Part shown: piece after piece, positions 24,851 to 53,135 of the stretch
Layout: every line of letters starts with the position of its first letter
How positions within the stretch are numbered: position 1 is the first letter of the stretch
Assembly (NCBI GenBank): GCA_018302605.1
Contig: JAGVZN010000025.1
Location: forward strand, 2,693 to 66,692
From: Candidatus Woesearchaeota archaeon
Lineage (GTDB): Archaea > Nanobdellota > Nanobdellia > Woesearchaeales > GW2011-AR9
Direction of reading: 5' to 3'
DNA: 64,000 nucleotides
Made by a program: the position numbers and the translations under genes
The notes under the pieces: generated by a model
Told to the model about the DNA's origin: nothing
Database searches by the model: none
Seen by the model: the letters and a program-made list of their open reading frames with translations, nothing else

Positions 24851-25046
24851 GGGCGCGTAGTTCAGTGGTACTTCGCTGGAATTCCAATGGTTTGCCGGAA
24901 GCACAACAGAATGCACCGTTCGCAACGGTGAGATCTCGGGTTCAATCAGATGTCACGTCATCTGAAAGACGAAGCGACTTCGCAGATTTGCTCAGTCGCG
25001 AATAATTTAGAGAGGTCGTGAATCTTTGAAAATCCCGACGCGTCCA
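24851..25046 (+). tRNA. tRNA-Ala(CGC) with a D-loop insert and an 86-nt T-loop intron
   Basis: Acceptor GGGCGCG/CGCGTCC with the G3:U70 Ala identity pair. D stem GTTC/GAAT is split by about 38 nt (24871-24908). The anticodon arm CACCG-TTCGCAA-CGGTG is intact. T stem TCGGG/CCCGA has the loop TTCAA[24946-25031]AT. Confidence 0.75.
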
Positions 25047-51864: not shown

Positions 51865-51924
51865 GTTATTTAAATAGTACGCGTAATTTTTATTCTCAGA
51901 TGTTCTGATGGGGGGGTATTAAAA

Positions 51925-52497
51925 ATGAGTTTACGCAATGTTGTAGCCGGTAGTTTAGCCACGCTTCTGCTGTCTGGTTGTGACGGAAAAGAAGAAGAAG
52001 AGAAAGAGCGCATTGGTCGTGTTGTTGTCGATGAAATAGAAGAGATCAGCAAAGAAGTGACGAAGCGATTCACATTTTTAGAAAATGATTCTCCATTAGA
52101 AGAGAAAGCGCGTGATCTGATGGAATATACTGCTGAAATTGGTGTTGAAGTTAAAGATGGTCTCCCCGTGTTCGCCAATGATGTTAGATCATCTAAAGTA
52201 ACTCTTGATAATGGGATGATCCTTGTTGCTCGGCAGTATGAGGGGCGTGCGAATAAGGACGACAGATCCATTGTGTGGCATGAAGCAAGGGGCTATAGTT
52301 TTCTATCAGTTGATACCGGCCGGATGAGATTTCAATTTTTTAATCTCGATGGTTATGATAAGACAAGACAGGTAGAAGCGTATGTCCGTGGACCTGCTTC
52401 TGTAGTCAATCGAGATATACACTCTCTGGTTGAAGCAGCTCTTGAAAGTGCTTATCAATCGATTGTCCATCCGAAAAGCGGCTGTGTTGATCGATAG
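51925..52497 (+). CDS. hypothetical lipoprotein (190 aa)
   Basis: LLLSGC lipobox. Confidence 0.5.
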   Translation: MSLRNVVAGSLATLLLSGCDGKEEEEKERIGRVVVDEIEEISKEVTKRFTFLENDSPLEEKARDLMEYTAEIGVEVKDGLPVFANDVRSSKVTLDNGMILVARQYEGRANKDDRSIVWHEARGYSFLSVDTGRMRFQFFNLDGYDKTRQVEAYVRGPASVVNRDIHSLVEAALESAYQSIVHPKSGCVDR

Positions 52498-52630
52498 GGA
52501 TGACGATTTTTAGACAGTGACTTTCAGATTACTTTTTTTCTCTCTCATTTCTCTGTTTCTTTTCTCTCTTTTCCCCGGTCCAAAAAAGAAAGATTTTTAA
52601 ACGAGATAACTCCCTGCTCTGCTGATGAAT

Positions 52631-52855
52631 GCAGGGGTAGCAAAGCCTGGTCAAATGCGCAGGACTTAAGCCCCATAACGGAACACCAATCAGCATGATT
52701 GGCTTCATCGCGAAGATATCCTGTTCCTTAGTGGATTCGGGAGTTCAAATAGATGTCACGTCACCTGAAAGACGAAGCGACAATCGCTGATCTCAATCAC
52801 GATGTCGCAGGAATTCAAAAGAGGGCGTGTATCTTTGAAAGTCTCCTCCCCTGCA
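52631..52855 (+). tRNA. tRNA-Leu(UAA) with a canonical 37/38 intron (47 nt) and a 92-nt T-loop intron
   Basis: Acceptor GCAGGGG/CCCCTGC plus A73. 3-bp D stem GCA/TGC. Anticodon stem CAGGA/TCCTG with loop CTTAAG[52671-52717]A. Long variable arm. T stem GGGAG/CTCCT with TTCAA[52749-52840]GT. A TATA box lies about 27 nt upstream. Confidence 0.75.
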
Positions 52856-52861
52856 CTTATC

Positions 52862-52879
52862 GCCCCCGTGGCTCAGTGG
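52862..52879 (+). other. orphan copy of the first 18 nt of tRNA-Thr, fused to intron-like sequence
   Basis: GCCCCCGTGGCTCAGTGG is identical to 53005-53022. It is followed by CAGATGTCACGTCACCT, which is the 5' end of the T-loop intron family. Confidence 0.5.
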
Positions 52880-53004
52880 CAGATGTCACGTCACCTAAAA
52901 TGTGAAGAAAATCACATTTTTGTGCAAAAATAGGTTTAGAGTTCCTATTTTTTGCATCTGAAAGACGAGGTGACCTGCGCTGCGCTTAGTCACCAGAAAT
53001 TATT

Positions 53005-53135
53005 GCCCCCGTGGCTCAGTGGTTGAAGAAATTCCACGAAAGAGCGTGTCCTTGGTATGCGAAAACAAACAGGACAAGGTCGCGAGTTCAATTGCTGATG
53101 TCCAAAACATCATCCTGAAAATCTCGCCGGGGGCT
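53005..53135 (+). tRNA. tRNA-Thr(GGU) with three short inserts (D-loop, a 13-nt 37/38 intron, a 29-nt T-loop intron)
   Basis: Acceptor GCCCCCG/CGGGGGC. D stem GCTC/GAGC is separated by about 24 nt. Anticodon stem TGTCC/GGACA with loop TTGGTA[53058-53070]A. T stem GCGAG/CTCGC with TTCAA[53092-53120]AT. Confidence 0.7.

What the first reader, a model, noticed from the sequence alone, without database searches (positions are those of the whole stretch)
52862..53022. 18-nt duplicate of the tRNA-Thr 5' exon flanking a 125-nt intron-like insert that itself contains two nested hairpins
GCCCCCGTGGCTCAGTGG occurs at 52862-52879, 6 nt after tRNA-Leu, and again as the true 5' end of tRNA-Thr at 53005-53022. 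Between them lies sequence that begins like the T-loop intron (CAGATGTCACGTCACCT) and resumes that intron pattern (TCTGAAAGACGAGGTGACC) only after a ~65-nt segment made of two extra hairpins. The break point is in the D loop, where the other tRNAs carry inserts. There are three possibilities: a target duplication made by a mobile intron-like element, an alternative or split 5' exon, or a recombination scar.
Basis: seen in the sequence. Interest (0 to 1): 0.6.

Follow-up and report, generated by a model that had tools for sequence, protein, structure and literature searches.

The report
Duplicated tRNA start beside mobile intron
The repeated 18 bases are most likely a dead spare copy of the start of a threonine tRNA gene, left when a small intron-like mobile repeat settled there; the same footprint at tRNA and 5S rRNA genes of related tiny archaea gives a rare view of how archaeal tRNA introns spread.

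Summary
The 18-mer occurs exactly twice in the genome, 143 nt apart. Contigs from three independent metagenome studies each span both copies without a difference.

The 125 nt between the copies is a member of a repeat family I call E. E also sits as a clean T-loop intron in the neighbouring tRNA-Leu and in many other tRNAs. A separate two-hairpin repeat is nested inside this copy.

The layout is not a one-off. [quoted passage not shown] recurs at Thr(CGU), Thr(UGU), Asn and another tRNA in related genomes. A mirror form recurs at the 3' end of 5S rRNA genes.

In older loci the upstream fragment has decayed, while the downstream copy always fits the acceptor stem. A same-genus relative has the orthologous Leu-Thr locus with no repeat, no E and no introns.

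I therefore read the upstream copy as a DNA-level by-product of E insertion or recombination, not a used exon. The mature tRNA should come from the 53005 copy through RNase P and the splicing endonuclease.

The closest precedent is the Caldiarchaeum tRNA-Thr(GGU) fragment model (Sugahara 2012). This looks like a miniature, gene-free variant of it. Earlier notes of this scan recorded the intron family and a similar duplicated 5' fragment on other DNA.

The parts
52631..52855 (+). tRNA-Leu(UAA) gene. Exons 52631-52670, 52718-52749, 52842-52855. 47-nt anticodon-loop intron 52671-52717. 92-nt T-loop intron 52750-52841, which is E copy 1.
   Evidence: The in-silico spliced sequence folds as tRNA-Leu(taa) in ARAGORN. 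G003 has the same gene without the T-loop intron.
52856..52861 (+). 6-nt spacer CTTATC. Its last 5 nt resemble the leader TTATT in front of the real tRNA-Thr.
   Evidence: 23-nt match with one mismatch.
52862..52879 (+). Copy A: a duplicate of tRNA-Thr positions 1-18 (acceptor 5' strand, D-stem 5' strand, D loop up to GG). Interpreted as a non-functional fragment.
52880..52896 (+). E copy 5, left part of the conserved core (first hairpin arm and loop). Identical to the start of the tRNA-Leu T-loop intron.
52897..52956 (+). Nested two-hairpin module: hairpin 1 about 52897-52920, hairpin 2 about 52922-52956. It contains runs of T5 and T6. It belongs to a separate repeat family.
   Evidence: Six copies in the own genome. 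Nested in E at several positions in other genomes, including the same core position in G208. A strain variant carries changes in it.
52957..52968 (+). E copy 5, right part of the conserved core (TCTGAAAGACGA).
52969..52994 (+). E copy 5, second hairpin (P2, GGTGAC...GTCACC). It is 26/26 identical to P2 of the E copy in front of tRNA-Thr(CGU) in G463. Its 3' strand can pair with positions 7-18 of copy A.
52995..53004 (+). 10-nt tail or leader (AGAAATTATT) directly in front of tRNA-Thr. It leaves no room for a TATA box.
   Evidence: Compare the G003 leader and promoter.
53005..53135 (+). tRNA-Thr(GGU) gene; copy B is 53005-53022. Exons about 53005-53023, 53041-53057, 53071-53092, 53122-53135. 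Introns: D loop 53024-53040 (17 nt), anticodon loop 53058-53070 (13 nt), T loop 53093-53121 (29 nt). Boundaries are good to +/-1-2 nt.
   Evidence: The spliced form is a perfect tRNA-Thr(ggt) cloverleaf. It differs from the intronless G003 gene by one compensated acceptor pair.

Best explanation
[quoted passage not shown] E is a small, protein-less, intron-like repeat. In T loops it behaves as a spliceable bulge-helix-bulge intron.

Here E is joined by its exact 5' end to tRNA position 18/19, after the D-loop GG. The first ~23 bp of the gene (a few leader bases plus positions 1-18) are present on both sides. An intact gene therefore survives downstream, and a dead fragment remains upstream.

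Expression, inferred: tRNA-Leu, fragment, E and tRNA-Thr are transcribed together, or from a start inside the nested module. RNase P cuts in front of copy B. The splicing endonuclease and ligase then remove the three short introns.

[quoted passage not shown] The other candidates are a chimeric cDNA made by one of the two reverse transcriptases (about 20%) and a staggered-cut target duplication or replication template switch (about 20%). One insertion of 52880-53040 at position 19/20 could also have delivered the D-loop mini-intron, as in the Caldiarchaeum model.
For: - The insert is a bona fide E copy: core plus P2 hairpin, closest to the neighbouring tRNA-Leu copy in its 5' part.
- E is patchy, which fits gain and loss. 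It is in 29 of 114 family genomes with 1-33 copies, in 2 of 401 genomes sampled across the order, and in two of four genomes of the genus.
- G003, of the same genus, has the orthologous locus: an 80%-identical flanking gene, the same gene order, an intronless tRNA-Thr with its own TATA box, no repeat and no E.
- The layout recurs. Of 110 distinct E cores, 42 were called clean T-loop introns, none with a flanking repeat. At least 16 others have an exact direct repeat of 11-31 nt ending within 13 nt of the E 5' end, about 0.005 expected per locus.
- The hosts of these repeats are Thr(GGU), Thr(UGU), Thr(CGU) in one syntenic locus across three genera (sometimes two units in tandem), Asn, one more tRNA, and 5S rRNA 3' ends in five genomes.
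- In the tRNA loci read, all but G436 (8 nt further on) and G435 (after GCG) break right after the D-loop GG.
- Copy B pairs 7/7 with the acceptor 3' strand in 12 of 12 loci. The fragment is down to 4-6/7 in three loci, and its D-stem strand differs in seven.
- The E-side end of the fragment travels with E. Two loci of G014 (Asn and Thr) share the same junction and a rare core variant. The 5S fragments of different genera share CCTG(A)CG where the host 5S genes read have CCCGCG.
- RNase P RNA is present.
- The fold using copy B is 5.3 kcal/mol more stable, and copy A is then sequestered by E.
- DNA contigs of independent studies confirm the structure.
Against: - No RNA data exist, so which copy is used and where transcription starts are inferred.
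- In this genome the two copies are identical, so decay cannot be shown here.
- No TATA box lies within 40 nt of copy B, and the module carries T5 and T6 runs that could terminate read-through from tRNA-Leu. How tRNA-Thr is transcribed is therefore unexplained.
- The mechanism is not identified. E has no terminal inverted repeats. The duplication length varies from about 12 to 45 nt. T-loop copies show no duplication. The fragment is far better conserved than the neighbouring intergenic DNA in the Thr(CGU) locus, which could mean selection rather than gene conversion.
- A 7-nt repeat (AGAAATT) flanks copy B. The D-loop mini-intron ends like an E intron (CCAC-GAAAG). Copy A could therefore once have been the real exon of a large D-loop E intron.
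Confidence: 0.65

Rival explanations
1. Alternative 5' exon. Copy A is a used exon. 52880-53040 (E, leader, copy B and the mini-intron) is one 161-nt D-loop intron that shares its 3' splice site with the 17-nt mini-intron. Two routes would then give the same mature tRNA.
For: - Copy A ends in GTGG, which can pair with the CCAC just before the 3' splice site.
- The intron end CCAC-GAAAG resembles the ends of E T-loop introns.
- A 7-nt repeat AGAAATT brackets copy B, as if copy B had been inserted into an older intron.
- DPANN-type splicing endonucleases are reported to accept relaxed motifs (abstracts of PMC3239211 and PMC5829648).
Against: - The fold with copy A is 5.3 kcal/mol worse and lacks an inner helix next to the 5' bulge.
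- Most related loci have no D-loop intron behind copy B, so their fragment has no 3' splice partner.
- Fragments decay in relatives.
- The 5S loci show the same layout with E antisense to the host RNA.
Confidence: 0.08
2. Functional leader or small RNA. The fragment plus E is kept because it acts in cis or trans, for example as a decoy or chaperone for the tRNA 3' strand, as a processing platform, or as a carrier of promoter and terminator signals for the tRNA.
For: - The fragment is much better conserved than the flanking intergenic DNA in the syntenic Thr(CGU) locus.
- Units persist across three genera and occur in tandem.
- One E subtype ends in a TATA-like box at promoter distance from the tRNA.
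- The P2 3' strand pairs with 10-11 of 12 positions of the fragment, checked by hand in two loci.
- The 5S fragments stay near-identical to their own 5S gene in each genome.
Against: - Fragments carry disabling changes, and some come from a different tRNA-Thr type than the gene behind them.
- E was not found in most family genomes searched, nor in two of the four genomes of the genus.
- The same conservation is expected from young copies and from gene conversion.
- No RNA evidence exists.
Confidence: 0.12
3. Split-tRNA 5' piece. Copy A with its trailing sequence is a separately used 5' part that is trans-spliced to a 3' part encoded elsewhere, as in Nanoarchaeum or Caldivirga.
For: The fragment ends at a known intron or split-type position and is followed by structured RNA.
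Against: - A complete tRNA-Thr with the same 5' end lies 125 nt downstream.
- The 18-mer has only two copies.
- BLAST of the element against the genome found no complementary leader elsewhere.
- There is no promoter in front of copy A.
Confidence: 0.02
4. Artefact or chance. The repeat is an assembly chimera or a coincidental match between tRNA-like sequences.
For: The genome is a metagenome-assembled genome (MAG), and repeats can mis-assemble.
Against: Contigs from three independent studies span both copies with no difference. Chance expectation is 0.03 even with 3 mismatches. The layout recurs in other genomes.
Confidence: 0.01

Closest known systems
tRNA-Thr(GGU) gene disruption model in Caldiarchaeum subterraneum (Sugahara et al. 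2012, PMC3293823; read)
   Same: - A 5' fragment of tRNA-Thr(GGU) lies upstream of an inserted sequence.
- An intact tRNA-Thr(GGU) follows, carrying an extra intron at the border of the repeated segment.
- The authors note that tRNA-Thr may be a preferred target.
- The structure is explained as integration by recombination between an element-borne tRNA-like site and the gene.
   Different: - There the insert is 1.87 kb and encodes a putative recombinase; here it is 125 nt with no gene.
- There the repeat covers positions 1-27 and the intron sits at 24/25; here they are 1-18 and 19/20.
- Here the insert is itself a member of a tRNA intron family.
- Here the layout recurs in many genomes and at 5S rRNA genes.
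Transposed BHB introns of Thermoproteales (Fujishima et al. 2010, Mol Biol Evol; known to me and named in earlier scan notes, not read here)
   Same: Related intron sequences occupy different tRNA genes and non-canonical positions, which implies intron mobility.
   Different: As far as I know, no flanking duplications of exon sequence and no free-standing or rRNA-associated copies were described. The lineage here is DPANN.
Integrase-mediated integration at tRNA genes (SSV-type and pNOB8-type elements), with integrase-less derivatives mobilised in trans
   Same: Direct repeats of a tRNA gene end flank the insert, with an intact gene on one side and a partial copy on the other. Three tyrosine-recombinase genes exist in the genome.
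   Different: - The repeats are only 12-45 nt and of variable length.
- The hosts are unrelated in sequence (tRNA 5' ends, 5S 3' ends, E itself).
- No integrase was linked to E.
MITEs with target-site duplications
   Same: E is small, non-coding, structured and multi-copy, is flanked by direct repeats, and carries nested insertions.
   Different: E has no terminal inverted repeats. The duplication is not of fixed length. Many copies (T-loop introns) have no duplication at all.
Split and permuted tRNA genes (Randau 2005; Chan et al. 2011, PMC3218864, abstract seen)
   Same: A tRNA fragment ending at an intron-type position stands apart from the rest of the gene.
   Different: Here the complete gene is present and adjacent. 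No complementary leader and no orphan 3' part were found.

Membership tests
BHB tRNA intron (for the 125-nt insert) | Lies inside the mature-tRNA coding sequence, so removal is needed to restore the cloverleaf | tested here: not met
   With copy B as the 5' end, the insert lies wholly upstream of the gene. The gene 53005-53135 gives a perfect cloverleaf without it.
BHB tRNA intron (for the 125-nt insert) | Bulge-helix-bulge at both junctions | tested here: not met
   No 4-bp helix can form between the end of copy A and the bases before 53005. Only the distant CCAC at 53034-53037 pairs with it, at a cost of 5.3 kcal/mol.
BHB tRNA intron (for E copy 1 in tRNA-Leu) | Removal restores a valid tRNA; exon-intron helix next to the T stem | tested here: met
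   The spliced Leu is a valid cloverleaf. The minimum-free-energy (MFE) fold pairs TTCAAA with TTTGAA and AGAT with ATCT.
E repeat family | Conserved ~25-nt core (hairpin CAGATG-N6-CATCTG plus GAAAGRCGA) followed by a second hairpin | tested here: met
   The core is present but interrupted by the 60-nt module. The P2 hairpin is 26/26 identical to that of a G463 copy.
Transposon or MITE with target-site duplication | Direct repeat of target sequence at both ends | tested here: met
   18 nt exact, 23 nt with one mismatch. Recurs in at least 16 loci.
Transposon or MITE with target-site duplication | Terminal inverted repeats and fixed duplication length | tested here: not met
   The ends CAGATGTCAC and GTCACCAGAAA are not inverted repeats. 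Duplication lengths run from 11 to 31 nt exact, up to about 45 nt with gaps.
Integrative element at a tRNA gene (Sugahara / pNOB8-type layout) | Partial tRNA copy, insert, and reconstituted tRNA in direct orientation | tested here: met
Integrative element at a tRNA gene (Sugahara / pNOB8-type layout) | Integrase or recombinase gene inside the insert | tested here: not met
   The insert is 125 nt with no ORF. Recombinase genes exist elsewhere in the genome, but no link was shown.
Integrative element at a tRNA gene (Sugahara / pNOB8-type layout) | Empty site in a close relative | tested here: met
   G003 orthologous locus, synteny confirmed.
Split tRNA | Separate 3' part elsewhere, with a leader complementary to the trailer of the 5' part | tested here: not met
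   Only two copies of the 18-mer, and no complementary match to the element in the genome.

The most novel reading that the evidence does not exclude
The fragment-E cassettes are footprints of the mechanism by which a family of archaeal BHB tRNA introns moves. The intron travels with a short arm copied from a structured-RNA gene and enters new genes by recombination in that arm, or as a chimeric cDNA joined at RNA ends. The same element would then yield clean introns, 5' fragments of the kind that seed split tRNAs, and new introns at the border of the repeat. This would be the first mechanistic evidence for the mobility of protein-spliced tRNA introns.
Probability: 0.3. Interest if true: 0.75.

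Novelty: new variant of a known kind. Interest (0 to 1): 0.55.

Why it matters
How archaeal tRNA introns, multi-intron tRNAs and split tRNAs arise is an old open question. Intron "transposition" has been inferred from sequence similarity, but almost no footprints of the event are known.

Here one small element occurs in three states:
- as a clean T-loop intron;
- as an insert flanked by a duplicated tRNA 5' segment;
- as an insert flanked by a duplicated 5S rRNA 3' segment.

An empty site exists in a congener, and chimeric fragments point to recombination. That makes the question testable, in population metagenomes and in vitro.

There is also a practical point for annotation. Standard tools find no tRNA in this window, and fragments like copy A can be mistaken for exons or for split genes.

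Tried and rejected
- ARAGORN and Rfam at gathering thresholds find no tRNA in the window. Genome-wide, ARAGORN with introns allowed makes 14 calls, some spurious, and the Rfam tRNA model gives 9 hits over its cut-off. The genes therefore had to be spliced by hand.
- A sigma-70 promoter scan was not used, because it does not apply to archaea. A search by eye found no TATA box in front of copy B or copy A, only a weak TTTAGA in the module loop, so the tRNA-Thr promoter is unresolved.
- The joints (skip 47 at 52670/52718; skip 314 at 52750/53065, with side 29) come from other organisms' tRNAs. They are not evidence for an excised form.
- The two reverse transcriptases score below the group II intron cut-off. 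Their class, and any link to E, were left open.
- I looked for a common target motif among tRNA D loops, T loops, 5S ends and E itself. Only a weak "G|C" junction and a loose TGG..CAG resemblance emerged, and I rejected these as evidence.
- A scan of genome contigs for the fragment-E junction gave only 7 stretches, mostly loci I already held. The metagenome-contig scan, structure prediction and protein searches were not used because they do not bear on the question.
- I considered and rejected a C/D-box guide RNA reading of the core (GATG...CTGA). The two boxes are only 9 nt apart, which leaves no room for a guide.

Full report
**What is there**

The window comes from a 1.16 Mb, 32-contig genome, about 90% complete. 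Earlier scan notes call it a groundwater Woesearchaeota-type DPANN archaeon. Its relatives carry record titles such as Nanoarchaeota / Nanoarchaeia archaeon.

The 18-mer is present exactly twice in the window and in the genome, at 52862-52879 and 53005-53022. The match extends to 23 nt with one mismatch if 5 leader bases are included.

Standard tRNA finders see nothing here, because the genes are broken by several introns. Spliced by hand, 52631-52855 gives tRNA-Leu(UAA) with a 47-nt anticodon-loop intron and a 92-nt T-loop intron. Spliced the same way, 53005-53135 gives a perfect tRNA-Thr(GGU) with introns in the D loop (17 nt), anticodon loop (13 nt) and T loop (29 nt).

Contigs assembled from runs of three different studies span both copies of the 18-mer with no difference, and pieces from a fourth study cover the stretch between them. 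A strain variant keeps the same architecture, with changes mostly in the nested module. The repeat is therefore real DNA.

**What the insert is**

The 125 nt between the copies has three parts:
- The left and right halves of a conserved ~25-nt core. The core is a 5-6 bp hairpin, whose stem co-varies between copies as AGATG/CATCT, AAATG/CATTT and AAGTG/CACTT, followed by GAAAGRCGA.
- A 60-nt two-hairpin module that splits the core.
- A second hairpin, P2.

The same core starts the T-loop intron of the adjacent tRNA-Leu, a T-loop intron at window 24947-25032, and another on contig C31. It also occurs at two further places in the genome. I call this family E.

E is patchy:
- It is in 29 of 114 genomes of the family, with 1 to 33 copies.
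- It is in 2 of 401 genomes sampled across the order.
- Within the genus it is in this genome and in G002. It was not found in G001 (83% complete) or G003 (89% complete).

The nested module is a separate repeat. It has six copies in this genome. It sits inside E at several different positions in other genomes, including the same core position in G208.

**The empty site**

G003 is of the same genus. It carries the orthologous locus: the upstream protein gene is 80.6% identical, and the C-terminus of the downstream surface-protein gene is conserved.

There, tRNA-Leu has only its anticodon-loop intron. A 95-nt spacer follows, with a T-rich stretch and a BRE/TATA box. The tRNA-Thr(GGU) is intronless. 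The T-loop E intron, the fragment, E and the three Thr introns are thus differences that arose within the genus.

**The layout recurs**

I collected 110 distinct E cores from the fetched loci and sorted them by context.

- Forty-two were called as clean T-loop introns, directly after TTCRAA plus up to four further bases, with no flanking repeat.
- At least 16 others have an exact direct repeat of 11-31 nt whose upstream copy ends 0 to 13 nt before the E 5' end, mostly within 8 nt. About 0.005 such repeats are expected per locus from the window sizes.

In the tRNA cases, the upstream copy is the first 17-19 nt of a tRNA plus 0-5 leader bases. In this locus and the Thr(CGU) and Asn loci it is cut right after the D-loop GG; in G436 the break lies 8 nt further on, and in G435 after GCG. 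The downstream copy begins an intact tRNA. The hosts are:
- Thr(GGU), here;
- Thr(UGU) in G436;
- Thr(CGU), in one syntenic locus shared by three genera, sometimes with two fragment-E units in tandem;
- Asn(GUU) in G014;
- probably Val in G435.

The same layout is found at 5S rRNA genes in this genome (contig C2), G002, G005, G022 and G208. There the last 17-30 nt of the 5S gene plus its trailer are repeated on the far side of E. Rfam confirms the 5S genes, and E lies antisense to them. In G503, short E units sit inside other E copies, with an 11-12 nt repeat of the host E start.

**Which copy is functional**

In 12 tRNA loci the downstream copy pairs 7/7 with the acceptor 3' strand. The upstream fragment pairs only 4-6/7 in three of them. 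Its D-stem strand differs from the gene's in seven. In three of the loci the fragment matches the gene behind it at only 13-14 of 18 positions, and by my reading two of these are of a different tRNA-Thr type. So the fragment is not held as an exon.

In the present locus the copies are identical, so I compared folds instead:
- Forcing acceptor stem, D stem and the exon-intron helix with copy B gives -91.9 kcal/mol.
- Forcing them with copy A gives -86.6 kcal/mol.
- In the better fold, copy A is tied up by the 3' strand of the E P2 hairpin.

RNase P RNA is encoded, so a long leader can be removed. The 5S loci, where E is antisense to the host RNA, argue that the duplication is a property of the DNA and not of RNA processing.

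**How it arose (inferred)**

Three observations constrain the mechanism.

1. The left edge of the repeat lies 0-5 nt before tRNA position 1. That is roughly where transcription should start, judged from the TATA distance in G003 and in G436.
2. The right edge is at a fixed structural position, and E is always joined by its exact 5' end.
3. The fragment is chimeric.
   - In G014, the Asn and Thr(CGU) loci share the E-side end of the fragment and a rare core variant, while the outer part matches the local gene.
   - In 5S loci of different genera, the E-side end reads CCTG(A)CG where the host 5S genes read here (G000, G005, G208) have CCCGCG. The outer part tracks each genome's own 5S.

The third point is what a crossover inside a short element-borne arm would leave. 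It would also explain the bias towards Thr and Asn, whose 5' ends are almost identical. I therefore favour recombination between the gene and an arm that travels with E.

Other routes stay open. A chimeric cDNA joined at RNA ends is possible: two reverse transcriptase genes exist, of undetermined class. A staggered-cut duplication or a replication template switch cannot be excluded. Three tyrosine-recombinase genes exist, but none is linked to E.

The 18/18 identity here shows only that this event, or the last conversion, is recent.

**Open points**

- No TATA box lies in front of copy B or copy A, and the module contains T5 and T6 runs. How tRNA-Thr is transcribed is therefore unknown.
- A 7-nt repeat (AGAAATT) brackets copy B, and the D-loop mini-intron ends in CCAC-GAAAG like an E intron. 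Copy A may therefore once have been the true exon of a large D-loop E intron. Equally, one insertion of 52880-53040 may have delivered both E and the mini-intron.
- I could not separate vertical inheritance with gene conversion from repeated insertion at the Thr(CGU) and 5S loci.

**Comparison with what is known**

The nearest published case is the tRNA-Thr(GGU) locus of Caldiarchaeum subterraneum. There a 5' fragment (positions 1-27), a 1.87-kb element with a putative recombinase, and a reconstituted gene with an extra intron at 24/25 were explained by integration through an intron-bearing attachment site. The authors suggested that tRNA-Thr is a preferred target (PMC3293823).

The present structure has the same three hallmarks. 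It differs in four ways: it is 15 times smaller, it has no gene, its insert is itself a tRNA-intron family member, and it recurs at several tRNA genes and at 5S rRNA genes in a DPANN family.

It fails the tests for a BHB intron at this position, for a classical MITE and for a split tRNA (see the membership table).

Earlier notes of this scan had recorded the T-loop intron family in this window and elsewhere, and a duplicated 5' exon-like fragment in another Woesearchaeota genome. I used them as leads only.

**Verdict**

The upstream copy is most likely a non-functional by-product of the arrival of a mobile, intron-like element. This is a new, miniature and recurrent variant of a known kind of tRNA gene disruption.

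Noticed in passing
G000:C2 about 78900-79060 (L034, minus strand); also L031, L039, L059, L078: An E copy sits just downstream of the 5S rRNA gene, antisense to it. It is flanked by a direct repeat of the last ~28 nt of 5S plus its trailer. The same layout appears in four other genomes, in tandem in G002.
   Followed up: partly
window 52897-52956; G000 C5, C6, C7, C27, C31; L010 about 1111-1200: A 60-66 nt two-hairpin repeat family (hairpin 1 loop GAAGAAnATC; hairpin 2 TGTGCAGAAA...TTTCTTGCA) with co-varying stems. It often lies near gene starts, and it is nested in E at three different positions. One copy lies just downstream of tRNA-Thr in G003.
   Followed up: partly
G503 loci L106-L125: One family member carries 33 core matches. 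These include chains of ~47-nt mini-E units, each inserted after the first 11-12 nt of another E with that piece repeated. Some introns appear to have the reverse complement of the core next to the 3' splice site.
   Followed up: partly
window 53093-53121 and 53024-53040: The 29-nt T-loop intron of tRNA-Thr (GATGTC...CCTGAAAA) looks like a minimal E core. The E core alone (hairpin plus GAAAG) would form a compact bulge-helix-bulge with the universal T-loop TTC. The D-loop mini-intron also ends in GAAAG.
   Followed up: no
G000:C5:2328-3401 and G000:C21:40461-41564: Two reverse transcriptase genes of about 360 aa in this 1.16 Mb genome. Their best match is below the cut-off of the group II intron RT model, and their class is undetermined.
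   Followed up: partly
window 51865-52630: About 770 nt, with ORFs 51925-52497 (+) and 51870-52271 (-), lie between the conserved upstream gene and tRNA-Leu. G003 has only about 60 nt there, so this is a probable insertion.
   Followed up: no
L057, L083, L101 (genus g43): E copies start 4 nt after what looks by eye like the 3' end of a tRNA gene (...GGTCCA TTTC | AAATG). This is a fourth context for E, besides T loop, D-loop fragment and 5S.
   Followed up: no
G000:C31:3525-3600 (L004) and G002:C3 (L044): A free-standing E copy that is not inside a recognisable tRNA and is conserved between two genomes of the genus. It is preceded by an A-rich TATA-like stretch.
   Followed up: no
whole genome: The Rfam tRNA model detects only 9 tRNA genes above threshold, and ARAGORN detects none in the window. 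Most tRNA genes of this organism must be hidden by multiple introns.
   Followed up: partly
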